Source: Eledone cirrhosa
Taxonomy: Eukaryota
Assembly: GCA_964016885.1 (NCBI GenBank)
Contig: OZ024744.1
Location: 113,398,001 to 113,462,000 of the forward strand
Reading direction: 5' to 3'
DNA length: 64,000 nt
Positions 4,117 through 49,175 of the stretch are shown in pieces (position 1 is the stretch's first letter; every line of letters begins with the position of its first letter). Both the position numbers and the translations under genes were made by a program. Under the pieces are notes generated by a model. The model was not told the origin of the DNA. It saw only the letters and a program-made list of their open reading frames with translations, and ran no database searches.

Positions 4117-4730
4117 TTTACGTATCGAGAAAGAGAGAAAAAGGAGGGATAGGTGATACATATAGTTATTTGCCAAGTAGCGTATGCCAAAGGTGCTCGA
4201 TACTAGTGCCGGCAGTATTAAATATTCGAAGTGTTAATATTTAGTGGGCTAGAGAGATAGCAGAGCGTAAGCACGTGGGAAAGTAAAAGATCGGAGAATA
4301 GACCGTTAAAACATGTTTATTTAAAACAGCACCTGCGTACGTTTCGCCCAGTTGGGCTTCTCAAGGGCATAAATAATCACAAGTGTTCCTTATATAGTTC
4401 GGAAAGAGTTTTTGGGATTAAATCTACATCAAGATTCATTGCTCGCAAAAATATCTTGTTTTGATTTTGCAGCAGGTCAAGGGAGGTAACTCTGGCCGGT
4501 GTTAGGGCAGTCTTTCCCGGATAATTTTTTTTTTTTTTTTTTTTTGCCGCATCCGTTTGTCTGGTATGGGTCTGGTATGCAAGGATTGTTTTCTGGGTGT
4601 TATTTTGCTGCGCCTGCCCGCCGGGGTGTTAAGACTTGTTGCAGGGAGATCCAGTGTACTATTTCACTCTTCATTCTTAACCCATCTAAAGAAGGATATT
4701 TTTAAGCGATGTGTACAACTTATCGCTGAT
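4113..4730 (-). mobile_element. pLTR + tail fragment of the Hydra-type PLE at 23877-27945
   Basis: Near-identical to 27050-27665; flanked by (TA)n; carries mutated UUGAGAA HHR at 4328-4370. Confidence 0.85.
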
Positions 4731-7680: not shown

Positions 7681-7684
<4 letters not shown>

Positions 7685-12168: not shown

Positions 12169-12526
12169 ATATATATATATATATATATATATGATATTAA
12201 ATAAATGGAAACTATATTTATAAAACCATATTTATTTCGTTATATATATTTCAGGGATATCATATTAACAATATGTTATGCCTTCTTCAGACAAAATACA
12301 ATATAAACAGTCTTATAAATAAATAGATACGAGGGGGATAAGGTGGAGGCGGAGAAACTTAAACTATGTCAGCTTTAACTCTAACCACCCCAAATCTGTT
12401 AAAAATACTATAGTAAACTCTGTTCAATCACGTATCTCTAGAATCTCATCTAATAAAAAGATTTTCGACGAAAAAGCCCATTATTACAATGAAGCGTTTG
12501 CTAGAGCAGGATATAGTGATAAAATT

Positions 12527-13321
12527 ATGTACATAGATAATGATAAACAAATTAAACAAAATAACAACTATTTTAACTATGGCGACAACCTTAACAACTA
12601 TAATAGAAAGCATTACAATAATTCCAAAAACCATAAAAGAAATAGAACTAGGAATATAATATGGTTTGCCCCCCCTTTCTCACTAAACATTAAAACCCAC
12701 ATTGCTAAACTATTTTTTAAAGCTCTCGATAATCGCTTCCCTAGAACACATAGGTATCACTCAATTTTCAATAGACATACTATAAAACTAACCTACTCAT
12801 CCACCAAAAATTTAGCGCAAAATATTAATAGAATAAATAACAGGAACTTAAAACCTAGCGATAATAGCATAAATAATATCCAAGTTAACAAATGTAACTG
12901 TAGAGATAGATCTAAATGTCCGTTAAATAACAACTGCTTAGTTAAAAATATAATATACAACTGTAATGTTAAAACGGACGTTAATTCTTTTAACTACGTT
13001 GGTTCTACATCGACGGAATTTAAACTTCGCTATAACAACCACAAGAATTCTTTCACAGATCCATCCAAAAAATCTTCAACAGCACTATCAGGCGTACTCT
13101 GGCAACTTAGGCATGATAACGTTAGATATTCGACGACTTGGAATATAGTTTCAAGGGGGATTCCTTTTAATTCATCCTCTGAGACATGTGACCTCTGTGC
13201 GGAGGAGATATTCTTTATACTAAAATCTAAAAATTCCCTTAATCTACGGACAAATTTATTCAGTTGCTGCAGACATAGATTAAACTCAACGTTTAAATAT
13301 AAATTTAAATTTAAAATGTAG
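12527..13321 (+). pseudogene. PLE C-terminal region: linker + GIY-YIG endonuclease
   Basis: RNIIWFAPPFS, CNCRDRSKCPLNNNC, IIY...YVGSTSTEFKLRYNNH, CDLCAEE, CRH. Confidence 0.9.
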
Positions 13322-14263
13322 TTATGTTTGATTTGATTTGTAATTATTTATGAAACTAGCCGATAAATCTTTCGATTTCTTCTTTTTATTAAAACATTCT
13401 TTTTATTAAAACATTCTTCATGAATAATTAAACTACCCTAAAAGCTGATGCTCCAAATATATCGAATTAAATTTTAAACTAGATAAACTTCTATATTAAA
13501 TATAAGAACATATGTAGACCAAATGGGTATCCTAAACTTTTGGAATGATTTCTGCTAGACAGGATTTGGTAAACAATTTTTGTTTTATCTGTTTCGACTC
13601 TGATGCTTATGATGATCTTGGCAATATATTGTCAATTAACTTTGAAAGGCTGATCTCTGTGTTTTATTTGTATTATTTTTTAATATTTTTTAATATTTTG
13701 TAATATTTTTTATTTTTAATATTAAATGTTTTAGTTTTCTGTTTATTTATTTATTTTCTTGTCTCTGATATTTTTATTTTTATTTTTATTTTTATTAATA
13801 TATTGAAATCTGTTCTCTATTTCTGCTTGATCGACAATAATGTAGAATAAAGACAAGAATAGTATTGTTAAAATTAATATAGACTCTATATATATGTGTA
13901 TATATACACACATATATGTATACTTGAATTTTTATAGCACAATGAGAATGTTTTCGTGTGAATTGGGAGTTTGTTTATAATTATGATATAAACATATGAA
14001 TTTTTAAAAACTAGACATAAGATCATTACTTTTCACACATTATAGATACATGTCTCATTCATGAATACTGGTATTTACATTATAATGCCTGTTTTATACG
14101 AACTAATATTTTCTACGGGATAAAACATAGCGGTTTTAAATTCTGCATCGTTTATGTCTGGTTGTGTTTCATTTTCTCTTTTTCATTTTCTCTTTTTTCT
14201 CTCTATATAACGGCTATTTTCTCTCTTAACTACATACATCTCTCTTTACATTAATACTAGAGC

Positions 14264-14294
<31 letters not shown>

Positions 14295-14600
14295 ATGTAT
14301 CAACCGATACTCAACTTCCTAGTTTCTCTATCTATCTCTATCTATCTCTTTCTTTTTTTCCTCTCTCTATATATATTTCTCTCTGTTTCTTTACATGAAG
14401 TCCTTCTCTTTATCTATCTTTCTATATCTCTCTATTTAGTCACATGCATTTCTTCTTTTTCTTCGTTTCTCTTTCTTTCTCTCTTTATCTCTTTCTTTTT
14501 ACAACTGTCCACAATATTTTTTACTGCCAAATCAACCTCCCAAATGCAAGGTGATTGAAAGGTATGTCGTATCTATTTATTTATAAGACTGTTTATATTG

Positions 14601-14666
14601 TATTTTGTCTGAAGAAGGCATAACATATTGTTAATATGATATCCCTGAAATATATATAACGAAATA
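14601..14666 (+). ncRNA. Type I HHR, CUGAAGA core (mirror copy 12233-12298 -)
   Basis: TATTTTGT-CTGAAGA-[AGG...CCT]-GAAAT-ATAT-ATA-ACGAAATA; 8-bp stem I. Confidence 0.8.
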
Positions 14667-14794
14667 AATATGGTTTTATAAATATAGTTTCCATTTATTT
14701 AATATCATAAATATACTCCAAATACTTGTTGAGTGCTTTTATATCAGTTATAAATATTTACTCGTTGTTAACCCAACAATTTAAATATAACTTT

Positions 14795-15605: not shown

Positions 15606-15610
<5 letters not shown>

Positions 15611-23800: not shown

Positions 23801-23877
<77 letters not shown>

Positions 23878-23930
23878 GTGGGAAAGTAAAAAATCGGAGA
23901 ATAGACCGTTAAAACATGTTTATTTAAAAT

Positions 23931-23973
23931 ATCACCTACGTACGTTTCGCCCAGTTGGGCTTCTCAAGGGCAT
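23931..23973 (-). ncRNA. Type I HHR with U3-A8 core UUGAGAA (identical copy 27265-27307)
   Basis: ATGCCC-TTGAGAA-GCCC-AACT-GGGC-GAAAC-GTAC-GTA-GGTGAT; stem I weak. Confidence 0.6.
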
Positions 23974-24266
23974 AAATAATCACAAGTGTTCCATATATAG
24001 TTCGGAAAGAGTTTTGGGGGTTAAATCTACATCAAGATTCATTGCTCGCAAAAATATCTTGTTTTGATTTTGCAGCAGGTCAAGGGAGGTAACTCTGACC
24101 GGTGTTAGGGCAGTCTTTCCCGGATAATTTTTTTTTTTTTTTTTTTTGCCGCATCCGTTTGTCTGAGGCTGGGTCTGGTATGCAAGGATTGTTTTCTGGG
24201 TGTTATTTTGCAGCGCCTGCCCGCCGGGGTGTTAAGACTTGTTGCAGGGAGATCCAGTGTACTATT

Positions 24267-27003
24267 TCACTCTTCATCCTTAACCCATCTAAAGAAGGAT
24301 ATTTTTAAGCGATGTGTACAACTTATCGCTGTTTCAGCTCTGCTGTTGATGAGCTCGTGGGGTACAGTTATGATGTGGTAGAGCTCCATGAGGCAAAGAT
24401 CGCATTTCCTCTTGAAGTTGTACGGTGCAGCCCTGCCGACAATCTCCCAGTGCGTGGAGAAGCTGATGTTTAAGTCCTTTAGTGATGTGATGTAGTCCGC
24501 GAGCGAAGTGGAGTGCCTTAGTTTTCTATTTGTGAAAGAGTGGAGATGTGTTCGAAACCTAATTTTGAACGGGCCGGAGGTGGCCCCTATATAATGTTTA
24601 ACGCTATTGTGGCTAGTAATAGTGCATCTATATATAACCCTATCAGTCAAGCAGTATCCTCTAAGGGGGCAGCGTCCTCTGTCGCGGCAGTTGCAATTTC
24701 TGTCGCGGTTCCGTCTATTTCCAACGGTAAGGCTATCATTGTTGCTGCCTACGTTGTTACCTACGCTACCGCAGCTGTCGTTAGCACAATTACAACCCAC
24801 AGCACGCGGGATGGTGCGATTGTTATTCCGCACGTCATGTTCTGCATGTTCCCCAGCCACTTCGCGGTCATTCTGGTTGCGTCTGCGGATGCCGTTGCCA
24901 ACACTATTGGATGCTGCCAGGGAGTTGTTAAGGCCGATATAGTTATTGTCAGGTGTAGGTGCGTCTGTGTCGAGGTGCTGTGTCTTGGTGATCTTACTGT
25001 GGTTCGTTGTTCCTATGATGTCTGCTAGGTTAGGAGTAGTAGAGAAGGATATTTTTATATTGTTCCTACTAAGAATTTTTCTATACCTATGGTTGGGCGG
25101 GAAGTTCTTCTCTAAGGCTTCGAAGAATATCCGGGGTATGTTGGAGGCCACACTCCGAGAGTAGGGGGGGTGGAACCATAGGACGTTACGGTGGCGATTA
25201 CGTGTCCTTGTACTTTTGCTACGGGTGGTTCCATCTAAGTGACCGCTCTTATGTGTGTTAATGCGCAGTCGCCCGTTCGGTGCCCCTTTCACTTTATGCT
25301 CGGGTGCACTCTTTCTACCTCTTCCATGTTTATGTACACGAAGATGTTGGTTGGAAGGCGTTGGTAGTAGGCCGTCGCCTTTGTTGGTTTTGTAATAGGG
25401 GAATAGTTTGAGTAATCTACAGTGTTTACCGTCGCCGGGGACGTGATCTTTGGTGCGGTTATCTATTCTATTATATCCGACTTCAACGAGGTCGCCGCGT
25501 GATCGGTTATAGGTATGGCTTACTATAACGTTAGTTTTATGAGGGGGGGGGGGGGGTTCTAGAGCTAGCGTTAGGGATGTAGGAAATTCCTCGGTTAAAG
25601 CCGGCGCTTATCAGGGCCCTATTGTAGTAATCAGCCGCTTGGTTGAAGATATCCTCATTGGCGGATAGCCTCGAGATTCTATGTGAGATACTATAGACTA
25701 TGGAGTTGAGAGTCTGCTTAGGGTGGTTGGAGGCATAATTAATATAAGAGAGGCACTCTCCAGGCTTATGGTATGGCTTGTATAAGCCCGTACTCAACTC
25801 CAGGGTCACGTCCAGGAAGTTGACAACCCTGTGGTTGAGGTCCATAGTTACGGATAGGCCGTATGACTTAAAGAACCTGTGTATATGTTTGTTAAGGTTC
25901 TCTATCCTACGGGGGCTATGGTTCCTAACGGTAAACAGGGCGTCGTCCCTATATACACCTCCTTGTAAGGCCGGTATTTCTTCCTTAAGCTTATGTAGGA
26001 GGTATATCCCAACCAGCTCAGTTTCTTGCGCTGAGTCACTGGACACCATCGTGACATCGAAGTTATCAGGACGGTCGGTTCTGGTCCAGTGGGAGCCTTC
26101 GAACTGGATAATGGTTCTACGTGCCGCTAGAATTATGTCTATTTCTTTTTTAGTGAGGCTAGTGTTAGATCTAGCTAAGATAAGTGCCTTATTTAAGAGT
26201 ATGGGGGAGATAGAGGCGTAGTAGCTATCTATATCAAACTGGATGAATTTCAGGGTGGCTTTATCCGGCAACTCGGTGAATCAATTTATGACCTGGTCGG
26301 TGTTGCCCCAGAGGCAGACCTTAGCCTTTCTATTAAGCTCGAGTAGTACTCTGTCGAGGATCACTTTACTAATCTTACCTATATCTGATGTAGAGGGGCA
26401 TATTAGTCTAATAGAGGGGCTTTCATTAAAGTCATATTTGTGATCCTTAAGAGAGAATTTAGGCGTCAGAGGGACGTACGGGTTAGTGTACTTTTCTATT
26501 TCTAAGCTGGTGACTATATCCTTCCCTACTCTATTTATGTCATTTAGGGTACTAGAGGGTGTCTTTTTGTAGTCTTTGTGTAGTTCCTTATAGATGAATT
26601 TTTTATACTCACTCGCGTCCATCTTGTACAGCTTTTTGGTTTTGTCGGAGGTGACGAAGAGGTGCGGGTCATTCTTGATCTTAGTTATTAGTGTATCAAG
26701 GGACGTTAAGAATGGATTGCTGCATTGGTGTTTCTTTCTGAGCTTAACGTTTTTGATCATTTTCAGCAGGTCCTCTTCAAAGAAGTCCAGTAAGGTGTTG
26801 TGCGGTGGGTTTCGGTATGTTTTGAAGCCATACTTCTCTTTCGGTTCAGGAAGGTTTCGGGTGTTCTTATCCAGGTGATATGCCTTCCATCTGACTCTCC
26901 GTATAAACGAATTAGTAGCGTCTATAAGCAGTTTAAGGTGGGTTTTTCTGCTGGGTAAGGGGATACACATGAGAGACATGGGTAACGGCTGGTTCTCCAA
27001 CAT
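24267..27003 (-). pseudogene. PLE polyprotein (RT + GIY-YIG) with one TGA (26281) and frameshift(s) near 25540
   Basis: FIRRVRWKA, SDKT, LKDHK, RLICP, QFDIDSYY, GVYRDD, SNHP, WFHPPYS, CNCRDRGRCPL, YIGATSGPFKIRFRTH, CDLC. Confidence 0.92.
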
Positions 27004-28145
27004 AATGGCAAATAAGGTGAGATGCTCTACAAAAGGAGCACGGTAATATAGTATTTACGTATCGAGAAAGAGAAAAAAAGGGGGGATAGGTGATACATAT
27101 AGTTATTTGCCAAGTAGCGTATGCCAAAGGTGCTCGATACTAGTGCCGGCAGTATTAAATATTCGAAGTGTTAATATTTAGTGGGCTAGAGAGTTAGCAG
27201 AGCGTAAGCACGTGGGAAAGTAAAAAATCGGAGAATAGACCGTTAAAACATGTTTATTTAAAATATCACCTACGTACGTTTCGCCCAGTTGGGCTTCTCA
27301 AGGGCATAAATAATCACAAGTGTTCCATATATAGTTCGGAAAGAGTTTTGGGGGTTAAATCTACATCAAGATTCATTGCTCGCAAAAATATCTTGTTTTG
27401 ATTTTGCAGCAGGTCAAGGGAGGTAACTCTGGCCGGTGTTAGGGCAGTCTCTCCCGGATAATTTTTTTTATTTTTTTTTTTTGCCGCATCCGTTTGTCTG
27501 AGGCTGGGTCTGGTATGCAAGGATTGTTTTCTGGGTGTTATTTTGCAGCGCCTGCCCGCCGGGGTGTTAAGACTTGTTGCAGGGAGATCCAGTGTACTAT
27601 TTCACTCTTCATCCTTAACCCATCTAAAGAAGGATATTTTTAAGCGATGTGTACAACTTATCGCTGTTTCAGCTCTGCTGTTGATGAGCTCGTGGGGTAC
27701 AGTTATGATGTGGTAGAGCTCCATGAGGCAAAGATCGCATTTCCTCTTGAAGTTGTACGGTGCAGCCCTGCCGACAATCTCCCAGTGCGTGGAGAAGCTG
27801 ATGTTTAAGTCCTTTAGTGATGTGATGTAGTCCGCGAGCGAAGTGGTGTGCCTTAGTTTTCTATTTGTGAAAGAGTGGAGATGTGTTCGAAACCTAATTT
27901 TGAACGGGCCGGAGGTGGCCCCTATATAATGTTTAACGCTATTGTGGTTTATATATATATATATATATATACATACATATACATATATATATAAATATAT
28001 ATATACATACACACACATATATATATATATACATATATATACATACACACATATATATATATATACATACACACACACATATACACACAAATATATACAT
28101 ACACACACACACTCTTACACAAATACATATATATATATATATATA

Positions 28146-28815
28146 CGCCCCATCATTGAAATGTTCCCAGATGTATGTGACAGCACGGAGGACCTCCTCA
28201 GCAGAATCGGCGAGAGTAACCGATCTAGGGACCTAACAGACTGCATAATAGGTAGTATGGATGTTGTGTCCCTGTATCCATCTATTGACGTGGATTTTGC
28301 TGTGGAGAAATGCGTAGAAATGATCAGTGAGAACAATGTTGATTTCCGTGGGATTGATACCAGTGAGCTGGGACTCCTACTTAAACTTACCTATAGTAAT
28401 AATTACCTAGATACATATGACCTTACCAACCTGTGCCCTACAAGACCAGCAAGAGGCAGACCACCTACCATTACCTCAATGGCCAAGAAAACCCATACAG
28501 ATAGATGGAACGGGTCGACCAGAGCCATGCGGACCCCCGAAAACCACGATGAACTAAAGAAAATGATTGCACATGCGGTGGGGGCCAGCATAAAATTAAC
28601 CCTTAAGGAACATATGTTCAAATTTAATGGAAAAACATATGCCCAAGAGGAGGGAGCAGCCATTGGTGTTAGCATTGCAGGCGACATAGCTAACCTATTT
28701 ATGGTATGGTGGGACAGTAGACTTAAACTTAAACTTAAATAACAATTAGAAGACCCCTTAACCTTGATAATGTACTCCCGCTACGTTGATGATATAAACA
28801 TCGTAGTAAAACACG
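28146..28815 (+). pseudogene. PLE RT core fragment, probably the family of 15606-18296
   Basis: IIGSMDVVSLYPSID, YAQEEGAAIGVSIAGDIANLFM, YSRYVDD; joined directly to that family's pLTR. Confidence 0.85.
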
Positions 28816-29328
28816 ATATTGTTATACTTTGGGAGGGTCATGTTGCCAATAAGAAACACACGCACCAGTTGCTTTCACTTCAATTTATTATAATAAATTT
28901 ATAAATTTAGGAATTTATAAATTTCCGGTTGGTTGGTTGGTTCCACAACCAGATGGTTGTTTATATATTGTCAAAGTTCTTTCGTCACACATTCTGTGAC
29001 CTCTTCAGTGACTGGGGATTCTTTTCTTTGTTTTTTGTGCCTCTCCTTTGTTCTGTCCTACGCCATCTTGTTTCTGTGTGTGTGTTGTGTGCTTAGTTTG
29101 CGCATGTGTTACATCCGGGTGTCTGTGTGTGTTTATATTCGTTTATTTATTTGTTTATTTACATGTTACTGGTTGGTTGTTTGTTCTATGTGCGTGTGTG
29201 TTTTCATTTTGTCCTTAATTGAGGACAAAATGAAAACACACACGCACATAGAACAAACAACCAACCAGTAACATGTAAATAAACAAACAAACAAACAAAC
29301 AAATAAATAAACGAATATAAACACACAT
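28816..29328 (-). mobile_element. pLTR of the 15606-18296 family with terminal hairpin (centre ~29218)
   Basis: Matches 15606-15995; ~29125-29215 inverted at ~29222-29328. Confidence 0.85.
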
Positions 29329-35580: not shown

Positions 35581-36792
35581 CATCATCATCATCATCGTCG
35601 TCGTTTAACATCCATCTTCCACGCTAGCGTGGGTTAGACGGGAGTTGTCCCACTTGAGGCAAGGTTAGTCGGATGACCGTGTCCTGCTCATATAGGACTA
35701 TCTGGAAGGTTTTCTACGGCTGGATGCCTTTCCTAACACCAAGCACATTTACAGTGTGGAACTGGGAGGTTTTTTTTCATGGCACCTACACGATCTTGAT
35801 CTCATTATCTCATTTATTTGGACTGGATGTTGTGGTACCAACTTTACAGAGAGAGGGTGGTGCTGGTGGGAGTGGGAGGATAGGGTAGAGGTAGTGGATT
35901 GGGGTGTATATTTGGTTAAGAGGTGCCTACTGACTGTAGGTTTCGCTTTGTACATAGGCAAGGCGGGTCTTCTGTATTACTGCGTAGCGCCAAAGATCTC
36001 GGTCCAGTGACATTGTCTTAGAGAGGTGCAAGTGTGTAAGGTAAGAATTTATCAGATCGTCCCAGGTTTTTCTGGGTCTATCTACTCCGTAACTACCACC
36101 AATTTTGATCGCCCTGTACTTTTTTTTATACAGCTGTCGTCTTTCATGCGCATCACGTGACCATACCAACGTAGTCTTCTCTCAAGTAAACAGCATCTGA
36201 TCCCTCCTATTCCTAATTTCTCATTTACTTCATTTATGCTTTGCCATTCATGTATATTACTATTACACATCCAACGGAGCATGCAAGCTTCGTTCCTTTC
36301 CAGTCTGCGCAGGTCCTCTGCTCACAATGCCCATGTCTCACTGCCATGTAGCATTGCTGTTCGTATACAGGCATTATGCAACCTGCCTTTCATTTTTAGA
36401 GAGAAACCTTTAGTAGCCAACAGCGGTATAAGCTCTCTGAACTTTTTCCATCTCTGGCTACTGTACTTTCAGAGCACCCTCCACCACTACTGATTTCGTC
36501 ACCCAGGTAACGGAAGGTGTCCACTATTTCTATAGAACCATCTGGGCAATAGAAGGAGCTAGTATCCTGTGGGCACTTGCTACTTATTGCACCTGAGCAT
36601 CGGCCATATATAAAGTCTACGTTCTTAGATAGTTTACCTGTGATCCCACTACATCTTTTATGTACCCAGAGTTTGCATTTGGGACATAAAATGGAATTTC
36701 TGCCTACTCCTTTCCTACACACTGAGCATGGCCATTTCCCTGAGGGCACCTGTGCCCTATTTTCCTTTCTACAAACTAGAACTTTAGTCTTA
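35581..36792 (-). mobile_element. RTE LINE 3' fragment with (ATG)n tail
   Basis: KTKVL...WPCSVC...FRYLG, ERRLRWYGHVMRM, RPRKTW; (CAT)n at 35581; cut at a TA by the next element. Confidence 0.9.
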
Positions 36793-36814
36793 TATATATA
36801 TATATATATATATA

Positions 36815-38037
36815 TAGGAACAAGTATGACCCCGACGGCAGAGCTCAAACCATTTCGACGGCTATTTCTGGACTAAATAAGAATTTTTAGCCTGGTAAAT
36901 AAATAGCCAAACTTCTCAAGGGGAATTTCCTTATATGGGAAGATAGTAATTGTCAAGTTGATTGGTTAAAATTTGTTATAAAGACAGATAAATCTATCAT
37001 GGCATTTGGTGGGAGGTAGGGGTGGCTGAACTTGCCGGTAGAACAAAGAGGGGGTGGGGAAATCCAGTCAGGCTTTGAAAGTGAAATCTATACAGCAGAA
37101 TCTATGGATAGTGTATAAAAGGTCGAAAAATTGTACTGGAGAAAAGGGAGGGGGGGGTGTTGAAAGAATAGGTAGGTCGAAAGGAAGTAAAATAAAACTA
37201 TTTATAAAAATAAATATATAAAGACAATATTTTGATAGTGAGAAATGAAAAAAACAAAAACAGCTGCTAAAAATTAGTAGGTATTGCTAAGCTATAGAAA
37301 AGTTTAATAGGTAGAGAATGGGAAAAAAAACGAGATTGTAGTTGGTAGTGGGAAAAATTCTTTAAGCCGACTTTACAGGGGGTCTAACACCGCTGCAATA
37401 AATAAAGCGTAAACAGCCAATGCTATCTTACGATGAAAGGTTAATAGGTTGAGAACAAAAATACTATATAAGGAATTTAGAAATTGTAGAAATGGAGTAG
37501 TAACAAAAAAGAAACAATAACGGGGTCTAACACATCTACTATAAAAAGCGTAATAGGCCAATTCGTAATAGGCCAATAGTTTTATTTTACTTCCTTTCGA
37601 CCTACCTATTCTTTCAACACCCCCCCCTCCCTTTTCTCCAGTACAATTTTTCGACCTTTTATACACTATCCATAGATTCTGCTGTATAGATTTCACTTTC
37701 AAAGCCTGACTGGATTTCCCCACCCCCTCTTTGTTCTACCGGCAAGTTCAGCCACCCCTACCTCCCACCAAATGCCATGATAGATTTATCTGTCTTTATA
37801 ACAAATTTTAACCAATCAACTTGACAATTACTATCTTCCCATATAAGGAAATTCCCCTTGAGAAGTTTGGCTGTTTATTTACCAGGCTAAAATTCTTATT
37901 TAGTCCAGAAATAGCTGTCAAAACGACTTGAGCTCTGCCGTCGGGGTCATACTTGTTCCTATTACCCACTCTACTACCCTAAGTATTGAGTACTTTGGTG
38001 CATTATGGTCTATCTGGTTCCTTACCACAATTCCTTC

Positions 38038-38040
<3 letters not shown>
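36815..38040. mobile_element. PLE-type fold-back: arms 36815-37202 / 37575-37962
   Basis: ~387-bp inverted arms, (TA)n both sides, HHR in each arm. Confidence 0.8.
36830..36923 (-). ncRNA. Type I HHR with U3-A8 core (damaged mirror copy 37854-37946 +)
   Basis: CCCC-TTGAGAA-[GGCTATTT...AAATAGCC]-GAAATGG-TTTGAGCTCTG-CCGTC-GGGG; all three stems form, GUC triplet. Confidence 0.75.
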
Positions 38041-38098
<58 letters not shown>

Positions 38099-38104
38099 TA
38101 TACA

Positions 38105-38170
38105 GTGAACAGTGAGCTGTACTGATGAAGGGTGATACCCAGAAACATTAGTGTCTGCAGTTCTGTTCAC
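38105..38170 (+). ncRNA. Canonical extended type I HHR
   Basis: GTGAACAG-TG-AGCTGTA-CTGATGA-AGGG-TGATA-CCCA-GAAACATTAGTGTC-TGCAGTT-CTGTTCAC; 15-bp bulged stem I. Confidence 0.88.
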
Positions 38171-39231
38171 ATGCCAACACAAGAGCAAGAATGAAGGGTT
38201 CATTCTACTGATATGGCTATAAAATAGAGGCTTGTTTGCATAATTGCAAACGAATAGAATATTATTATTAATATTCGCAAAACTCAGATTACAATTATTG
38301 TATTCAGCCATATAGAGCGAATAAATTTTCTTTTTTATTTGAATTTGGCAAAGCTGGCCACTTATCGCTCGTATAGAGGAAACTGACTGGCCAGTCTGCT
38401 GATATGCAAATCTGGCTGACCAGTCTGCTAATATGCAAATCAGGCCAATCAGTCACTGTGTATTTTTGAAAATAGCATATATTTTCACTAGCTCTGACTT
38501 CTGTAAAATTTCCTTGTACATCTAAGAATAAAGTAAATAAAATACAATACATGTATTTATTTAATTTCAATTACCTCATTATTGTATTTTATTTACTTTA
38601 TTCTTAACTCTGGAGCGGAGAATCATTCGGTTTCCTAGTTAGAATTTTAGTCTACGACTTCAGTTATACCATTTACGTGGTTTTGTCTTTGCGTGCAATT
38701 GTTCTCCACAGTCCACATATGACGTATTATCTTCGTTTTTTCCGTTCATTGCAAGAGAACGTCTCTATGAACCACCTAAGAGAACATTAGTCTACGACTT
38801 CTTTTATACCATAAACGTGGTTCTGTCTTTGCGTGTAATTGTTTTTCACCGCTCCTATTAATGACGTATTATATTCGTTTTTCCCCGTTCTTTGCCAGGG
38901 AAAGTTTCCACGAACCAAAGTATCGTCTTCCTGTCTTCCTCCGGTTGCAACGTTTTTTGAAATATCCACTTCTGCGTTTACGGATTGACTTTGTTAGTTT
39001 CAGAAGATCCCGTTAAGGGTTGTAGCAGCGTTTCTTTGCTTAAACTTTAATCTGTTATTTTAATAAATATTTGCTGTACGGTTCTTATATATTTGATACA
39101 TATTTATCCTTATCGAGCCCTCTTTGGATTTTAGTCTTCAAATTTATTATTATTACTATATTATATATATATATATATATTATATTTATACTATATGTGT
39201 ATATATTATATATTATATATTATATATATAT

Positions 39232-39340
<109 letters not shown>

Positions 39341-39363
39341 CTATATGTGTATATATTATATAT

Positions 39364-39425
<62 letters not shown>

Positions 39426-39432
39426 CATTATA

Positions 39433-42400
39433 TAAGGGTGGGACGGGTCCTATTTCAGCACAGCAGCTTTCCACTTGTCTCAACTTGTCACGGTCCTTCG
39501 TCATCTCCTCGGTGAGTTTCAGCGATCTGAAGTCTGCTCTCACCACCTCCGCCCATGTTTTTCGTGGTCTACCTCTACTGCGTATTCCTTCTACTGGTAT
39601 TTCTTGGCACTTCTTTACCCAGCTGTCATCCTCCATGCACATCACATGTCCATGCCATCTCAGCCTTCTCTCCTGCACACCACAACTGATCCCTCTTATA
39701 CACAGTTTCTTTCTCAACTCGTCTATGCTTGGTCGTTCACGCACATTGACATTGCACATCCAATGGAGCATGCTTGCTTCATTTCTCTCCAGCCGTCGCA
39801 TATCCTCTACAGTTGCTGCCCTAGTCTCACTACCATGCAGCATCGCGCACCTCACACAGGCATCATACAACCGGCCTTTCGTACGCAGGGAGAAACCCTT
39901 CTTTGTCAACAGAGGAAGCAGCTCCCTAAACTTCTTCCAACCCGCCCTTATTCTAGATACTATGGCCTCAGACCCCCCCCCCCATGAAAATCTGATCACC
40001 TAGGTACCGGAATCTATCAACCACTTCTATAGAATCCACCTACATTGGAAAAATGTGTCTATCAATGCGATTACTACTGCCAACTTTCCCTGTACATCTA
40101 CTGCATATGTAGTTTTCCCTACCTGTTAGTTTGCCTGCTATCCCGCTACATCTCTTGTGTACCCAAGATCTGCATTGTGTGCATTTTATAGAATTTATGC
40201 CAGTTCCTTTCCTACATATCGAACATGACCATTTCCCTGATGGAATCAGAGCTTTGTCCTCTTTTCTACTCATCAACACTTTTATCTTAGCTATGTTCAC
40301 TCTCAGTCCTCTTGATTCCAACTGCTGTTTCCATAGCCAGAATTTATTCTCTAGCTCCTCTACTGATCATCAACATAGAGAATTTCCCAGGGGCAGCCAA
40401 TCTTAAATTCCTCTGTTATGGCTTGGAGGACTATAATGAACAAGAGAGGGCTGAGGACTGAACCCTGATGTACTCCTACTTATATCTGGAATTCCTTACT
40501 AAACTCCATTCCTATTCTCACTTTACTGACAGCACCTCTGTACAAAGCTTGCACTATCCTCACAAGCCTTTTCTCAACACCTAGCTTCGTTTGGGACCAC
40601 CAGATAACAGATTGAGGGTACCCTATCACAACAAAAGCTAAGTATAGTGGCTTATTCTTCTCTAAGAACTTCTCTTGTAGTTGTGCTAATATTCTATCTG
40701 CCACTTTCATAACCTGATCGATCAGCTTTATTCCCCTATAATTGCTCCTCTCCAGAGCATCTCCTTCACCTTTGTAGCAATTTATGAGAATACTGCTGCA
40801 CCAGTCTTTGGGCATGACACCACCATATATAGCCTGATTGATGATGCGTGCAACCAGTTTAGTTCCTACTTCTGATCCCTTCAGCATCTCAGCAACTATC
40901 TCTGATGGTCCAGCAGACTTACCATTTTTCATTTCCTTAATTGCCTCTTGGACCCTATATTCGTCAATCTCAATAGCTGGTCCCTCTGTCGGGTCTACTG
41001 GTGGTAATTTCTCTCTCTCCCATTCGCACTCCACATTCATCAGTCTCTCATAATGACATTTCCAGCCTCCTTTTTTTTTATCATTCATGACACTAAGTAC
41101 ACCGGCATCATTCCGGATACACTTTTCTCCAATAACAACCTGATTTGCATTGACACAATACCTTGCAATGCGGAACACCACACGTCTCTGAGGCAAACCT
41201 ACTCTCAGCCTCCCTGTGTGCTAAGTACACCTGACGTCTAGCTTCTCTCTTAACGGCTGTATATCCTTCTCTACTCCCACCATTTTTTCAAGCCTTCCAT
41301 GCCAGTCTTTTGTCTCTAATAGCCTTATCTACTGTGCTGTTCCACCACCAGGTCACTCTCTGTCTGGTTGAAGCTCTGCCCCAACCACAAGTTTCATCAG
41401 TAGCCTGCAGCAAGTTGTCACGTAAGAAATTCCAGTTATCATCTATGTCATACGTCTCTAAATCGTCTTCTTTTTTGTCATACACATCTTGAAGGGCTTT
41501 CTTAAATTTGAATTTTAGTGAAAGGTCTTTTAACTTCCAGACCTTTCTCCTCCACACCTTCCTGTATGGCTCATTCTATCTCTTGCTTACTGAGATATCA
41601 CTAACGACTAACCTATGCTGTGGGGTACATTCTTCCCTGGGGTATGTCATGGTATTTGACACCATCTGTCTGTCCCGCTGCCTAACTAGCAAGAAGTCAA
41701 TCTGGCTTATGTGCTAGCCTGACTTGTAGGTTATTAAATGGTTGGCAGGTTTCTGGAAGTTAGTGTTGCAAATGGTCAGTGCACTTGCATCACAAAATTC
41801 AAGAAGTCTCACTCCTTCATTTCTTGAGCCGTAACTGTGCCCTCCATGTATCCCAGTGTAACCATCCTGGAGCTGTCCAACATGACCATTGAAGTCCCCT
41901 GCTAGCATAACAATGTCTCCGTCTTCTGTCATTGTGGCTGTTTGTAAAAGTTGCTCGTAAAAGCAGTCTTCTCTTCTTTACCTAGGCCTGCCTGGGGAGC
42001 ATAGGCAGAGATGATTGTCAGCAATCTCTTGCCTACAAGTAATCTAATCTTAATTGTTCTATTACTAACTCTAACTACCTCTATTGTCTTATTGATCCAT
42101 CTCTCAGCCAGTAAAATGCCTACCCCACCAAACCCATCATCATTACCCACCCAGAAAAGCTTATAAATAAGATTTTTTCCTGTGGTTAGTCTCGCAGATC
42201 CACCTCTCCATCTCACCTCTTGCACGCAGCACACATCCACATGCCTTCTCTCCAGCATCTCCACTATTTCACCAAATCTATCTGTGAGAGTGCGAACATT
42301 AAGAGTTGCAACTCTGAGATGCGACGTCTTGATATTCTTGTTCCTTTTCCTGTAGTGCGATTGCTTGATGATGGTCGTGGGGTTCTCACACATGGTCACA

Positions 42401-42726
42401 CTAGCCACCCCACTACTGTGCGCAGCCCTGATATAGTTAGTGCTATTGCTGTTGACGCAGTTGTTGCAATTCTCATTCGTTGTGTTCATAGTTTTTGGCA
42501 TTGATACACTAGTTGGATACCCTGCCTAACACCAGCACCACTTTACAGCATGGACTGGGTGCTTTTATTCGTGCCACCAGCACTAGAGAGGTTGTCTTAC
42601 TAGACTCAGGGGCCCTCTCTACCCCTCCATTTTACAGCATGGACTGGGTGTTTTTATTCGTGCCACCAGCACTAGGGAAGTTGTCTTACTGGACTTAGGG
42701 GCCCTTACCACCCCTCCATTTTTACA
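39433..42726 (-). mobile_element. Near full-length decayed RTE LINE (APE + RT)
   Basis: ATG 42501; LRVATLNVRTL, CVQEVRW, SAYAPQ, GDFNGHVG, NYRGIKL, GSET, RLRWHGHV, GRPRKTW. Confidence 0.93.
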
Positions 42727-42769
42727 TATATATATGTATATTATATATATATATATATTATATATTTTA

Positions 42770-42945
42770 TTGTCCTGGGTATGACATTAAACTACATCCA
42801 GCGACAAGGCTCCAGTTCGGGAGTTCAAGAGCTGTGGGGAATGTGGAGTTACCCCTTAGTTTTCATAACTCCCAGGTTTGCTCTGGCCCGGAGTAGTAGT
42901 ACCTGTTAGGGCCCCATTTATGGGTTAAATAACTACCTTATTCGA
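42770..42945. repeat. Short interspersed repeat fragment, unclassified
   Basis: Resembles from memory an abundant octopus repeat (TGTCCTGG.TATGACA.TAAAC...GGGGAATGTGGAGT); single copy here, unverified. Confidence 0.35.
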
Positions 42946-43060
42946 GTGGCGCCGCTAAGGTATTGTCAGCCATTGAAAAGAAATATGGAGAGTCGATCTA
43001 ACAGCACTAGGGTTAGAGCCCCTAATTACACTGTCAAGGAGCAGTCTGGTCATTATGACT

Positions 43061-44632
43061 CTACTGTACTTTCAGAGCACCCTCCACCACTGCTGATTTC
43101 GTCACTCAAGTAACGAAAAGTGTCTATTATTTCTATAGAACCATCTGGGCAATAAAAGGAGCTAGTATCCTATGGGCACTTGCTATTTATTGCACCTGAG
43201 CATCGACCACATATAAAATCTACGTTCTTAGATAGCTTACCTGTGATCCCACTACATCTTTTATGTACCCATAGTTTTCATTTGGGACATAAAATGGAAT
43301 TTCTACCTTCTTCTTTCCTACACACTGAGCATGGCCATTTCCCAGAGGGCACCTGTGCAATATTTTCCTTTCTCCATACTAGAACTTTAGTCTTAGACAA
43401 GTTAACTTTAAGGCCTTTTGATTCTAGGCCATGATTCCATGTTTCGAATTTCTTCTCTAGTTCAGCCATAGATTTAGCTATGAGAGTTAGATCATCTGCT
43501 TATAGAAGTTCCCATGGACAGCCGGTCTTAAATTGTCTGTTATAGCCTGAAGGGCAATAATAAATAGGAGGGGGCTAAGGACAGAGCCTTGATAAACACC
43601 AACTTTTATGCTAAATTCTTCACTATATTCATTGTTAATTCTAACGTTGCTGACTAATTCTTTATACATGGCTTGTATAGCTCTCACAATTAGTTTTCTA
43701 AGAGCCCACCAGATAATGGAGCGGGGGACTCTGTCAAAGGCTTTCTCCAAGTCAACAAAATCTAAGTAAAGAGGTTTACTTTTAGCTAGGTACTTCTCCT
43801 GTAGTTGTTGTACAAGAAAAAGAGCGTCTGTGGTACTTTTACCTGACACAAACCCAAACTGCATTTCATCTAGATCAATTCGCTCTCTGATTAGTTGCAC
43901 TATAACTCTTTCTGTGACCTTCATGACCTGGTCAACCAACTTAATGCCTCTATAGTTTCCCCTATCTAGAGCATCTCCTTTACCCTTGTAGCAGTTAATT
44001 GGTATGACCCCATTCTGTATTACTTGGTTAACTATACGGGTGACTGTAGTGTGTCCCACCAAACCAGATGCCTTCAACATCTCAGCAACTATCTCCGAAG
44101 GCTCAGCTGCCTTGCCTGTCTTCATGTCTTTGATTGCCTTACTTATTATACTACCTTTAACTTGCACTGCTGGTCCCTCTATTGGATCGATTTGGGGCAG
44201 ACTATCTTTTTCCCATTTATTCTCCTCATTTAGTAATCTCTCATAGTGACACTTCCAGGCTACCTTCTTATCAGTATCAGAGAGGGCAAGTACACCATCA
44301 TCATTACGGACAAACTCCACCCCGACAATATCACGGTTTTCCTTGACATATTGCCTTGCAATCCTGAACACCTCATGTTTTTGGTCCTCGCGTTGTAGAA
44401 CATGCTTGAACTTTCTATCTTATGCTTCCCTTCTTGCAAAGTACACTTGCCCCCTTCCTAGCCACTTGATAGTGTTCTCTACTTCCCCCATCCCGCCCTA
44501 CTTTCCAAGCCTGCCTTTTGACCTTCATTGTCTTCTCCACCGTACTGTTCCACCACCAAGTTACTCTCCTCCTGCCTATAGGTCTGTTCCAGCCACAGAT
44601 TTCATCTGTCTCCTTCAGCAGGTTAACTTTCA
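43061..44632 (-). mobile_element. RTE LINE internal fragment
   Basis: NYRGIKL, QFGF, FVDLEKAFDRV, GVYQGSVLSPLLF (ORF 43487-44371). Confidence 0.92.
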
Positions 44633-44644
44633 AGAATTCCCACG

Positions 44645-44736
44645 ACGAAGGACCATGACAAGTGGAGAGATGCTGTGCTGAATAGGACCTGTCCCACCCT
44701 TACAAGCAGGGAAAAGCGGACGTAAAATGATGATGA
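44645..44736 (+). mobile_element. 3' tip of an RTE LINE
   Basis: Similar to the reverse complement of 39433-39500; ends (ATG)n. Confidence 0.7.
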
Positions 44737-44742
44737 TATATA

Positions 44743-45472
44743 TCTACCTATATATGTAAATGGCAATTTCTGTCTGTTTGTTTGTGAACCTAAAACTCAA
44801 AAATTACCAAACCCATGTTGATGAAACTTAACACGTGTGTGGGGCTCATGCCCATTTGATTTCTTACATATATTTCATTTTAATCAAAGAGTTCCACGGG
44901 GGTTCAAACACCCGCTGAAAACCCCGCTTAGTTTTTTCCATTCGATTTATATGAAATTTAAACCATAGGTAAATGACAAGATATGATGCATATTCACAAC
45001 ATTTCAGCAAATTTCAATAATTGTTTCTACTTTAGGCACAAGGCCAGCAATTACCCAGTGCATTACTGGTACTTTATTTTATCGACCCCGTAAGGATGAA
45101 AGGCAAAGTCAACCTCGGCGGGATTTGAACTCAGATCGTAAAGGGACGTAACTATGCTGGAAAGCATGGCGTCCGACCCTCTACCGATACTGCCAATCCA
45201 CCGCCCTTTCAGCAAATTTCAATAATATTAAGACACCCTAATATTTTTTTTCCTTATAGCAACACTCAACTTCTCTGACAAACATTTTATCACCTGACCA
45301 ATGCAATCAACAATATAGTTTGTATTATTGTTTCGTAAATGAATTTGTCTTCGCTTTTGATTATCTGTCCTATATTGTGATTCCATTTTTGGTCTGAGAG
45401 GCATTGATTGGGCATTTTAATGGGAACTGGGAATATACCCCGCTCTCAGGTATTAACGGGTACCTCAGCTAG
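44743..45472 (+). mobile_element. Non-autonomous Helitron containing a SINE insertion
   Basis: A|TC start, GTCTGTTTGTTTGT tract, subterminal TACCC...GGGTA hairpin, CTAG|T end. Confidence 0.75.
45022..45206 (-). mobile_element. Full-length tRNA-derived Nin-type SINE with 20-bp TSD
   Basis: TSD TTTCAGCAAATTTCAATAAT at 45002-45021 and 45207-45226; A box TGGCAGTATCGG, B box GAGTTCAAATCC. Confidence 0.88.
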
Positions 45473-45480
45473 TATATATA

Positions 45481-47485
45481 TTATTGCGTGGCGCCAGAGG
45501 TCATGGTCGTGTGTCATTGCTCTTGAGAGGTGCAATTGGGTAAGGTCGGCCTTTATCATCTCATCCCAGGTCTTCTTGGGTCTCTCCACTCCGCAGCTTC
45601 CATCGACTTCTAGTGCCTTTTTATGCAGCTGTCATCCTTCATACGCATCACATGTCCATACCAATGCAACCGCCTCTCCTGCACATACCATTTGATTCCT
45701 CTTATGCTCAGTCTCTCTCTCAATTCATTTATGCTTTGCCGTTCGCGTATATTACTATTACACATCCATCGGAGCATGCCAGTCTTCTACACACAATGCC
45801 CAGGTCTTACTACCATGTAACATTGCTGTTCATATACACGCATCATACAGTCTGCCTTTCATTTTGAGGGAAAAGCCTTTTGCAGCTAGCAGTGGCAGTA
45901 GTTCCCTGAACTTCTTCCATCCCGTTTTTGCCTCAGTTGCTGTACTTTCAGAACATCCACCTCCGCTGCTAATTCAGTCACCTAGGTAGCAGAAGCTGTC
46001 TACTGTTTCTACAGAGCCCTCCCAGAGTTAGGTGGTGCTTGTTTCCTGTGGTCGTACAGCTGCTACATGTGAAGCTTACATTCTTAATTAAGCTTCCTGA
46101 GATCCCGCTACATCTCTTGTGTACCCATTGTTTGCATTTGGGACAGAGGATGGAGTTCCTACCTACACCTTTCCTACATACAGAGCAAGGCCATTTCCCT
46201 GAGGGAATCTGGGTTCTGTTTTCTCGTCTACTTACAAGGACCTTAGTCTTTGTCAGGCTGACTTTGGGACCCTTTCTTTCTAGTCCCTGCTTCCATGTTT
46301 CGAATTTCATCTCTAGTACCACCATGGAATCATCTATAAGTGCGAGGTCATCTGCATACAGAAGTTCCCATGGGCATCTGGTCTTAAACTCCTCCGTTAT
46401 TGCCTGCAAAACTATAATGAACAGGAGAGGGCTAAGAACAGAGCCCTGGTGGACACCAACCTGTATGCTAAATTCCTCGCTATACTTATTCCAAACTCTA
46501 ACTTTGCTGACTGCTCCTCTATACATGGCTTGTACAGCTTTCACAAGCCATTCATCTACCCCTAGTTTTCTAAGAGCCCACCAGATTATAACACGGGGGA
46601 CTCTGTCGAAGGCCTTTTCCAGATCGACGAATGCCAGGTAGAGCGGCTTACTTTTAGCTAGGTACTTTTCCTGTAATTGCCTCACAAGGAAGAGGGCATC
46701 AGTGGTGCCTCTTCCTGGTACAATCCCAAATTGCATCTCATCTAGTTTCACCCGGTCCCTAATCAACTGTGCTATAACTCTTTCTGTTACTTTCATGACC
46801 TGGTCCATCAGCTTTATACCTCTATAGTTTCCTCTATCTAGTGCCTCACCTTTACCCTTGTAGCAGTTGACAATGATGCTACTGCACCAATCCTTTGGTA
46901 TGATACCCTCTAGTATTATTTGGTTAACAATTTGTGTGGTTATTGTGTGACCTACCGACCCAGATGCCTTCAGCATCTCGGCAGCTATACTTGATGGACC
47001 GGTTGCCTTCCCTGACTTCATATCTTTGATTGCCTTACTTACTACACTGCTGCTGACTTGTACTGCTGGCTCCTCTATAGGGTCTACTTGGGGTAGGGTC
47101 TCTTCTTCCCATGCATTCTCCTCATTTAGTAATCTATCATAATGGCTCTTCCACGCATCTTTCTTCTCAGCACTTGTGAGGGCAAGCTCACCTTTATCAT
47201 TCTGGATACACTTCTCTCCAATGACATCACAATTCTCTCTGACACACTGCTTCGCAATCTTGAACACCTCCTGTTTCTGGTCCTCACGTTGTAAAACATG
47301 CTTGAATTTTCTATCCTCTGCTTCCCTCCTAGCTAAGTAGACTTGTCGCCTAGCTTCCCTCCTGGTCTCTATGTAATGTACCCTGCTTCCCCCGTTCTTC
47401 CATTCTTTCCATGCCTGTCTCTTGGCCTTAACTGCCTCATCTACCTTATTGTTCTACCACCAAGTCACTTTCCTCCTCCCTGTTA
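45481..47485 (-). mobile_element. RTE LINE fragment; 429-aa open stretch 45978-47267
   Basis: FVDLEKAFDRV, GVHQGSVLSPLLF, LYADD, C4HC3 finger. Confidence 0.95.
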
Positions 47486-47642
47486 TCAATTTTTCGAATT
47501 ACACCATGTTGGCTATTAGACATCTCCCTTAACTCATCTTCGTTCTCTCTATCTCATTCCGATTTATTTTATTACTGTTTATTCCTAAATCTCCTATGCT
47601 GATGATATATGTGTGCTGACTGCCTCTCTCTCTCACAATATA

Positions 47643-48565
47643 CAGGGTGCGGACGATATTTGTTCGCAATTTTCAACTGCTAATTTTATGCAATTTTTTT
47701 CTGCTTCCATTGTCACTCTTGTCTTCATAAAAACAGTGACTATATTTCCATTATTTATTTTCAGAATAATTGATTATGAATAATTTTGAACCTCCAAATT
47801 TATGAAAGAGACATGGAATTCTTCTTGAAATCCGCGCCGAGAGGACAAATAAGACCAGAAGATCAACTCTGAGAACAACAGGTGGGTCGCTATCTCATCC
47901 AAAGACGTGCCCAGAGTCATGCAGACAAAGTTTCCAGCGACAACATTGGTCTTAGGTGTCGTCAGCAGTCAAGGTGACGTCATGCCACCTCATTTCTTCC
48001 CTGAGGGCTTCAAGCTGAACACCGATGGCTACATCCGCGTTCTGAGAGAAGTAGTAAAGCCCTAGATCGACCAGGTAGCTGCAGGTTGGCCGTACGTGTG
48101 GCGGCAAGACTCAGCGCCCTGTCATACCGGCGGCAAGACTCAGCGCCCTGTCATACCAGCCGAAAGACCCAAGCCTGGCTGTCAGAGAACTTCGTCGACC
48201 ACACTTCACCTGACATCTGGCCGTCCAGCTCGCCTGACTGGAACCCCTTTGACTTCTTTGTGTGGGGCGCAGTGGAACGAGACACCAACAGATCTAGCTG
48301 CAATACAATAGACGATCTGAAGGCCAGGATCACAAGTGCCTTTAGGGGCCTAAGTCGGGGGACAGTGACGAAGGCCTGTAGCCGGTTCCGAGGCCGCCTT
48401 GAGACCGTCATCAAAGCCAATGGCAGGGTTTGTCAAGTGAGATCGAAAGAACAAGTCATGAAGACAACCTGACCCAAGTTTGATAAATATATCTTTAAAA
48501 ATAAAACTACTGTGTTAACTTTTTCCTAGACAGTAATCTTGCGAACAAATATCCTCCGCACCCTG
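47643..48565 (+). mobile_element. Internally deleted DD37D (maT-type) Tc1/mariner transposon
   Basis: 27-bp TIRs CAGGGTGCGGA(C/G)GATATTTGTTCGCAA, TA flanks; QDSAPCH...WPSSSPDWNPFD with 37 residues between the Ds; 29-bp tandem duplication 48101-48158. Confidence 0.92.
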
Positions 48566-48674
48566 TATATATATATATATATATTCATATATATATATAT
48601 ATACATATATATACATATATATATATATACATACATATATATATATATATATATACATATATATATACATATAT

Positions 48675-48738
<64 letters not shown>

Positions 48739-49175
48739 AGAGAGAGAGAGAGAGAGAGAGAGGAAGAGGAAGTAAGGTAGATAGAATAAGACAGAGGAAG
48801 GTAGATATATATATATGTATATATATAAATGAAAGTATAGAAATTATTGTGAGCATGAAGCCAACAGTATTTCATAATTGTTTCTACTTTTGGCACAAGG
48901 CCAGCAATTACCCAGTGCATTACTGGTACTTCATTTAATCGACCCCGTAAGGATGAAAGGCAAAGTCAACCTCACAGTATTTCATAATATATAATTATAT
49001 ATTATGACGTTATAGTCACTTATAAGTGACTATAACGTCAAATATATATATTATATATATATCATATATATAGTATGTATATATCACATATTATATATAT
49101 ATATAATATATATATATAATATATATATATATATTATATATATATATATATATTATATATATATATTATATATAT

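What the first reader, a model, noticed from the sequence alone, without database searches (positions are those of the whole stretch)
36830..36923. U3-A8 compensatory core (UUGAGAA) in two unrelated families
Seen: 36830-36923 has CCCC/GGGG stem I, an 8-bp stem II helix, a 4-bp stem III and GUC around UUGAGAA...GAAA; the unrelated 23931/27265/4328 family has the same heptamer. Established: C3-G8 is a tertiary Watson-Crick pair and U3-A8 is its rare compensatory form. The double change is internal evidence of selection for the active fold, and suggests recurrent origin or a shared deep lineage.
Basis: partly seen in the sequence, partly recalled or inferred. Interest (0 to 1): 0.75.

Follow-up and report, generated by a model that had tools for sequence, protein, structure and literature searches.

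The report
Penelope hammerhead that broke and repaired
This is a real hammerhead motif, predicted to cut its own RNA, at the end of a truncated Penelope-type jumping gene; its swapped core pair (U3-A8) is already published, likely arose separately in the two families, and in this family was broken for several rounds of spread and likely restored later, so the pair looks favoured but not essential.

Summary
Confirmed on the minus strand: a type I hammerhead (CCCC-UUGAGAA-long stem II-GAAA-stem III-GUC-GGGG) in the 3' repeat of a 5'-truncated Hydra-clade Penelope-like element (family A). The 23967/27301/4364 copies belong to a second Hydra family (B). U3-A8 is published, also in Penelope-like elements, and is common in this genome.

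A and B are homologous (42% protein identity) but not sisters; canonical C3-G8 families lie between them (AU p=0.001). Separate origins are modestly favoured. The shared G7 is coincidence, since position 7 varies freely.

Family A shows no double change. A8 is fixed, and position 3 is U in 5,001 and C in 1,538 exact genome matches. The mismatched C3-A8 subfamilies sit between two U3 clades, so the pair was probably restored at least once. A true C3-G8/U3-A8 swap occurs in a separate 320-nt retrozyme. Cleavage is untested.

This scan has already noted U3-A8 retrozymes and the C3-A8 subfamily on other DNA of this genome.

The parts
36830..36923 (-). Type I hammerhead motif of family A with U3-A8 core, long stem II and palindromic loop III
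   Evidence: conserved in family copies
36913..36919 (-). Core U3 U4 G5 A6 G7 A8 A9
   Evidence: N7 variable, A8 fixed
36833..36836 (-). GUC triplet; predicted cut between C17 (36834) and G1.1 (36833)
   Evidence: sequence; hammerhead consensus as given in PMC7151607
36817..37564 (-). Long arm of a 5'-truncated family A insertion (3' UTR/pseudo-LTR only; does not reach the ORF, which ends about 870 nt upstream of the core in full-length copies); ends 17 nt past the predicted cut
37575..38041 (+). Inverted short arm, 98% identical to the long arm, with an extra tail of about 80 nt (the element's own 5' UTR sequence)
37854..37946 (+). Second hammerhead copy, damaged (G12>A at 37920, stem III mismatch)
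36791..36816 (.). (TA)n target, left flank (right flank from about 38040)
23877..27947 (-). Family B Hydra-clade element: frameshifted RT-endonuclease ORF 27054-24267 between 737-nt direct repeats (99.5% identical)
27267..27305 (-). Family B hammerhead (UUGAGAA, 4-bp stem II, palindromic stem III ACGUACGU), 5' repeat
23933..23971 (-). Family B hammerhead, 3' repeat
4330..4368 (-). Family B hammerhead in a solo fragment, damaged (U16.1>C)
12323..14670 (+). Comparison: family C Hydra-clade element with canonical C3-G8 hammerhead (core at 14609; inverted copy at 12290)

Best explanation
The motif is a type I hammerhead with the known U3-A8 core in the terminal repeat of a truncated Hydra-clade Penelope-like retroelement, predicted to cut the element's RNA after GUC, and the U3-A8 core likely arose separately in this family and in the family at 23967/27301/4364. 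SHOWN: the motif, its host elements, their clade, the non-sister position of A and B, and the spread of a C3-A8 single-mismatch lineage inside family A. INFERRED: in a read-through transcript of tandem copies the two repeat hammerheads would cut out a unit-length RNA, possibly as a dimer through the palindromic loop III. Because insertions end 17 and about 100 nt beyond the cut site, the RNA copied into DNA must carry an intact junction (uncut or re-ligated). Cleavage therefore helps but is not strictly required in each round, so a 3-8 mismatch can persist through several subfamilies before a C>U change restores the pair. The same single-mismatch route would let C3-G8 and U3-A8 interconvert repeatedly.
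For: Host: full-length family A copies with RT and endonuclease (L061; intact ORF in L368) show RWR, DKT, CxCX5C, CxxC, CxH and (TA)n targets, the Hydra features of PMC8557442 section 11; family B likewise. Register: N7 is A, C, G or U while A8 holds in 857 of 870. With the core left free, 13 of the first 100 of 855 matches differ elsewhere, nearly all as singletons. Phylogeny: A-B identity 42% over 666 residues, the same as A to canonical C; B and a third U3-A8 family Q lie in a 100/99 clade with canonical families, A outside it; A+B as one clade rejected, p-AU 0.0011. Break and repair: a coding-DNA tree of 15 elements gives two U3 clades (100/99, 100/100) separated by five C3-A8 elements, with 2 changes forced by starred branches. 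The top 8 bootstrap root positions never lie inside the younger U3 clade or on its stem, and that clade is youngest by arm divergence (0.6-2.1% against 4.7% pooled for C3). Ease of switching: a 320-nt retrozyme has U3-A8 in 92, C3-G8 in 6 and single mismatches in 2 of the first 100 of 1,038 matches. Literature: U3-A8 natural and stated to be active in vitro (PMC3088659); in Schistosoma Cercyon elements (PMC4209133).
Against: No cleavage data and no RNA data. Parsimony is nearly tied: 2-3 gains against 1 gain plus 2 reversals, and B and Q are unresolved. Exchange of the hammerhead between families is not excluded by a protein tree. The root of family A is unresolved (707 of 1000 inside the older U3 group with two outgroups; 367/315 split with seven), so 'U>C>U' and 'C>U twice' cannot be told apart. 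No helix pair covaries within family A. No sampled copy begins cleanly at the predicted cut (the sample is biased towards copies that keep stem III). An alternative fold of similar energy sequesters the core. PMC4209133 found low in vitro activity for metazoan Penelope hammerheads.
Confidence: 0.65

Rival explanations
1. Shared deep lineage: U3-A8 arose once at the base of this Hydra subclade (or moved between families by template switching), and the canonical families between A and B reverted.
For: A, B, Q and the canonical C/M/E/R families form one 100/100 clade; one gain plus two reversals costs 3 steps against 2-3. All seven U3-A8 scaffolds seen have G10.1-C11.1 directly after A9.
Against: Outgroups (W, N, metagenome L379) and all 25 Hydra families in File S2 of PMC8557442 are C3-G8 (their descriptor was canonical and could miss U3-A8). 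The A and B scaffolds share no DNA similarity. The retrozyme family switched on its own.
Confidence: 0.25
2. The C3-A8 subfamilies stay active by a register slip: G7 pairs with C3 (core CUGA-GA plus an extra A before G10.1), so the pair was never really lost.
For: C3 copies have G7 in 94 of the first 100 of 1,538 matches, U3 copies in 60 of the first 100 of 5,001. All 5 tree changes at position 7 fall in U3 lineages. An extra nucleotide between 9 and 10.1 is typical of Penelope hammerheads (PMC4209133).
Against: The C3 lineage is one or two events, and its internal branches are short, so the absence of a position-7 change is not significant. It needs a core without N7, for which I found no precedent in the passages read.
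Confidence: 0.2
3. The motif no longer needs to cut in family A; it is kept as a structure for reverse-transcriptase binding or priming, and the changes at position 3 are neutral.
For: C3-A8 subfamilies spread widely. Insertions run through the cut site. Short copies mostly begin 26-47 nt upstream of it, in the 3' strand of stem II. Naiad elements thrive without hammerheads (PMC8557442).
Against: U4, G5, A6, A8, A9, GAAA and GUC are fixed across subfamilies whose coding DNA differs by 10-20%, while N7 and the loops change. Position 3 takes only U or C at subfamily level.
Confidence: 0.15

Closest known systems
U3-A8 minimal hammerheads of Schistosoma mansoni Cercyon Penelope-like elements (Cervera and de la Pena 2014, PMC4209133; parts 1-2 of 4 read, Fig. 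2A inset and supplements not seen)
   Same: Type I hammerhead in the pseudo-LTR of a Penelope-like element; U3-A8 instead of C3-G8; longer stem II, short stem I; pairs in opposite orientation; about 1,300 copies reported
   Different: Hydra clade here; real stem III with palindromic loop; no extra nucleotide between 9 and 10.1; stem II with an inner hairpin; a large C3-A8 lineage, not mentioned in the text read
Hydra-clade Penelope-like elements (Craig et al. 2021, PMC8557442; passages, section 11, Files S1-S2)
   Same: RWK/RWR, DKT, CxCX5C linker, CxxC and CxH around E and N, C-terminal endonuclease, (TA)n targets, inverted truncated arm with one-sided tail, 3' hammerhead
   Different: All 26 Hydra rows (25 families) of File S2 have C3-G8; families A, B and Q have U3-A8, and part of A has C3-A8
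Natural U3-A8 hammerheads (Perreault et al. 2011, PMC3088659; passages)
   Same: Same covariation, stated to be active in vitro (citing Przybilski and Hammann 2007, which was not held)
   Different: Not tied to a retroelement lineage in the passages read; no single-mismatch lineage
Animal non-LTR retrozymes (Li, Clavereau and Pollet 2026, 10.64898/2026.07.22.740005; part 1 of 5 read)
   Same: The 320-nt and 591-nt tandem repeats with U3-A8 found elsewhere in this genome fit this class
   Different: The finding itself belongs to an autonomous, protein-coding family and is not a tandem non-coding unit

Membership tests
Type I hammerhead ribozyme | Core YUGANRA ... GAAA ... UH with three helices, stem I open | tested here: met
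   (91% of cells paired in 15 family copies; slid controls 31-56%)
Type I hammerhead ribozyme | Watson-Crick pair between positions 3 and 8 | tested here: met
   U3-A8 in this copy; not met in the C3-A8 subfamilies (10 of 15 rows paired)
Type I hammerhead ribozyme | G10.1-C11.1 and A15.1-U16.1 | tested here: met
   15 of 15 rows each
Type I hammerhead ribozyme | Match to an Rfam hammerhead model | tested here: not met
   none among the 150 of 176 matches shown; the long stem II and variant core may explain this
Type I hammerhead ribozyme | Site-specific self-cleavage | not testable with these tools
   needs an assay
Hydra-clade Penelope-like element | RWK motif and DKT in place of DKG | tested here: met
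   A: RWR, DKT; B: RWK, DKT
Hydra-clade Penelope-like element | C-terminal endonuclease with CxCX5C linker, CxxC and CxH | tested here: met
   A: CNCPDRSMC, CNLC, CKH; B: CNCRDRGRC, CDLC, CTH
Hydra-clade Penelope-like element | (TA)n insertion, pseudo-LTR with hammerhead, inverted arm with tail | tested here: met
Hydra-clade Penelope-like element | Placement in a tree with named Hydra reference proteins | not tested
   trees used only in-genome, metagenome and unnamed database proteins
Nematis-clade Penelope-like element | CX2-5CxxC linker (PMC8557442) | tested here: not met
   the linker is CxCX5C
Non-LTR retrozyme | Non-coding tandem units each with a hammerhead | tested here: not met
   family A has coding full-length copies; met by the 320-nt and 591-nt repeats elsewhere

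The most novel reading that the evidence does not exclude
A retroelement lineage crossed the hammerhead fitness valley in plain view: it lived for several subfamilies and over 1,500 copies with the single-mismatch core C3-A8, possibly rescued by G7 slipping into the G8 role, then restored U3-A8, after which position 7 became free again. This is the natural intermediate by which C3-G8 and U3-A8 cores interconvert, and it gives matched natural wild-type, single-mutant and compensated ribozymes with copy numbers as a fitness read-out.
Probability: 0.3. Interest if true: 0.62.

Novelty: new member of a known kind. Interest (0 to 1): 0.38.

Why it matters
Whether Penelope-like elements need their hammerheads to cut is open (PMC8557442 calls the function unclear). 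Family A supplies natural, matched U3-A8 and C3-A8 versions on one scaffold, both of which spread, so an assay of two or three natural sequences would show how much cleavage a mobile lineage can lose. Practically, searches restricted to CUGANGA would miss roughly a third of the hammerheads in a genome like this one. The U3-A8 pair itself is not new.

Tried and rejected
1. Idea that UUGAGAA arises by loss of N7 from CUGA-N-GA-A followed by C3U, which would make G7 obligatory: rejected as a general route, because N7 is free in family A and other U3-A8 families have U7 or A7.
2. Idea that U3-A8 is favoured where stem I closes with CC/GG: 2 of 5 against 1 of 10 families seen in two or more loci, p = 0.24, rejected. 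G10.1-C11.1 next to A9 was 5 of 5 against 4 of 10, p = 0.044; this is one of two after-the-fact tests and only a lead.
3. First clade guess Nematis: dropped after the Hydra motifs were checked.
4. First family tree (46 of 71 rows, 25 dropped for poor upstream alignment) suggested a single derived C3 clade; superseded with the sister lineage added.
5. Rooting family A with distant proteins: unresolved.
6. Copies starting at the cut site: none clear in a biased sample.
7. Expression: no RNA holder listed; the one listed run is contigs of unknown kind and shows only that the family is present.
8. Link of family K to a reverse transcriptase: not confirmed in 30 loci. The apparent link of family H to an endonuclease is interrupted by (TA)n.
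9. Pfam did not recognise the Hydra ORFs of the window.
10. One search used a structure string out of register and is disregarded (redone).
11. Przybilski and Hammann 2007, Martick and Scott 2006 and Luense et al. 2017 were not read, so no rate for a C3-A8 mismatch is cited.
12. Literature searches for a natural C3-A8 lineage returned none; the library lacks most subscription journals, and figures and supplements of PMC4209133 were not seen.

Full report
OBSERVATION. The motif is on the minus strand, 36923 to 36830: CCCC, UUGAGAA, G10.1, an 8-9 bp helix with a 7-bp inner hairpin, C11.1, GAAA, a 5-pair stem III around the palindrome GAGCUC, GUC, GGGG. The predicted cut is after 36834. The same heptamer is in hammerhead context at 27301, 23967 and 4364. 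The heptamer alone is at chance level (11 seen, 8.4 expected), folding energy is ordinary (z = 0.25) and Rfam listed no hammerhead among the 150 of 176 matches shown. The evidence is family-wide conservation. A hammerhead-compatible fold is within 1.0 kcal/mol of the minimum, and 91% of cells pair in 15 family copies against 31-56% for slid controls, though no pair changes on both sides.

HOST ELEMENTS. The motif ends the long arm (36817-37564) of an inverted insertion into (TA)n. The short arm (37575-38041) is 98% identical, carries a damaged second motif (G12>A) and has an extra tail of about 80 nt. The window copy holds no ORF, but relatives in the 3.0-Gb own genome do: L061 and an intact ORF in L368. 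Family B is a frameshifted element at 23877-27947 between 737-nt direct repeats. Both proteins show RWK/RWR, DKT, a CxCX5C linker, CxxC and CxH, the features that section 11 of PMC8557442 gives for the Hydra clade. I first read them as Nematis; an earlier scan note pointed to Hydra and I checked it.

WHAT IS KNOWN. PMC4209133 (parts 1-2 of 4) reports U3-A8 in Schistosoma Cercyon elements, about 1,300 hits, and low in vitro activity of metazoan Penelope hammerheads. PMC3088659 (passages) reports natural U3-A8 covariation and says it is active in vitro. File S2 of PMC8557442 lists 26 Hydra rows, all C3-G8, found with a canonical descriptor. So U3-A8 in a Penelope-like element is known; in the Hydra clade it is not in that list.

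NOT RARE HERE. My scanner on 80 evenly spaced 10-kb stretches gave 90 hits: 36 C3-G8 and 26 U3-A8, against 0 and 1 of 20 in reversed sequence. By inspection 17 of the 26 belong to repeat families and 9 look like chance or an AT-rich tandem. Exact genome counts for other U3-A8 families: a 591-nt tandem repeat 6,094 (99 of the first 100 UUGAUAA), family K 11,931, a 320-nt tandem repeat 1,038. In the last, my tally of the first 100 is 92 U3-A8, 6 C3-G8, 1 C3-A8 and 1 U3-G8, with a paired change in stem II as well. This is the real double change on one scaffold.

ONE ORIGIN OR SEVERAL. A and B are 42% identical over 666 residues, the same as A and canonical family C. In a tree of 44 proteins, B and a third U3-A8 family (Q, L322) fall in a 100/99 clade with families C, M, O, E, S and R, whose cores are C3-G8 (the window copies of E and S are decayed, the core is read from L291). 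A lies outside that clade. A+B as one clade against 9 canonical rows is rejected (p-AU 0.0011). Outgroups are C3-G8. Two or three gains compete with one gain plus two reversals, so separate origins are only modestly favoured. The shared G7 is coincidence: in the first 100 of 870 family A matches the cores are UUGAAAA 36, CUGAGAA 38, UUGACAA 12, UUGAUAA 8, UUGAGAA 2 and four singletons (my tally).

BROKEN AND REPAIRED. In family A, A8 is fixed (13 exceptions of 870; 2 C3-G8 and 3 U3-G8), but position 3 is not. A wider pattern gives 5,001 U3 and 1,538 C3 matches, with A8 in all of the first 100 of each. The pattern requires C at the stem II position where the window's own subfamily has U, so that subfamily is not in these two counts. 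A coding-DNA tree of 15 elements chosen for length has two U3 clades (100/99, which includes the window's subfamily, and 100/100) with five C3-A8 elements between them; two changes at position 3 are forced. A 65-row tree of the repeat shows the same ladder with less resolution in the older group. The root is unresolved, but none of the eight commonest positions in either run lies within the younger U3 clade or on its stem, and that clade has the least diverged arms (0.6-2.1%, 4 pairs; C3 4.7% pooled, 8 pairs). A C3>U3 restoration is thus likely whichever state came first. C3 copies keep G7 (94 of 100) while U3 copies vary (60 of 100), which would fit G7 standing in for G8, but this rests on one or two events and is not significant.

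HOW IT LIKELY WORKS. From PMC4209133 and the anatomy, the repeat hammerheads would cut a unit-length RNA from read-through transcripts, possibly as dimers through the palindromic loop, which the younger lineage extends to UGAGCUCA. Insertions end 17 nt and about 100 nt beyond the cut site, so the copied RNA has an intact junction, uncut or re-ligated. The lineage is very abundant (33,210 exact matches to its stem III region), mostly as short inverted pairs beginning 26-47 nt upstream of the cut; none clearly begins at it in my biased sample. Cleavage that helps but is not required every round explains both the fixed core and the tolerated mismatch. These steps are inferred; no activity or RNA data exist here.

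VERDICT. The U3-A8 core is a known variant in a known kind of element. The recurrence is probably right, but the claim that the pair shows strict selection is weakened by the family's own single-mismatch lineage. My searches found no paper on a natural C3-A8 lineage, within the limits of the library. Interest 0.38.

Noticed in passing
window 12290 (-), 14609 (+), 52139 (-), 52299 (+), 52828 (+): Family C Hydra element with canonical CUGAAGA/CUGAGGA hammerheads; young and very abundant (61,847 first-look candidates, many 100% identical in the endonuclease); intact 745-aa ORF in L378.
   Followed up: partly
window 15607-18302 and 28809-29221: 2.7-kb palindromic insertion of a GIY-YIG Penelope-type element with minimal hammerheads CUGAAGA-G at 18104 (+), 15791 (-) and 29008 (-).
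   Followed up: no
window 730-635 (-); L291, L166, L369: Hydra families E, S and R have canonical hammerheads with a very long stem II (about 75 nt); the window copy is decayed (CCGAUGA).
   Followed up: partly
window 7400-11700 (-): Decayed Penelope-like element with DKG and YIDD motifs and a decayed minimal hammerhead near 7770.
   Followed up: no
L199-L228, L165, L166: 320-nt tandem retrozyme with U3-A8 and C3-G8 subfamilies and a GUAC/GUAC to GCAC/GUGC change in stem II.
   Followed up: partly
L229-L258: 591-nt tandem retrozyme with U3-A8, 6,094 exact matches, in direct and inverted arrays.
   Followed up: partly
L259-L288: Family K: 11,931 exact matches of a compact U3-A8 hammerhead, mostly short inverted pairs; no coding partner found within 1.5 kb.
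   Followed up: partly
L329-L358: Most copies of the A lineage are tiny inverted pairs whose 5' ends cluster in the 3' strand of stem II, as if reverse transcription stalls or switches there.
   Followed up: partly
L362:1105 and 4487: One full-length element has UUGAGAA in its 5' repeat and CUGAGAA in its 3' repeat.
   Followed up: no
window 35964-51540 and 55117-58079: Several nested, decayed LINE-type fragments (endonuclease, RT, PHD or C2H2 fingers); the finding sits in a (TA)n beside one.
   Followed up: no
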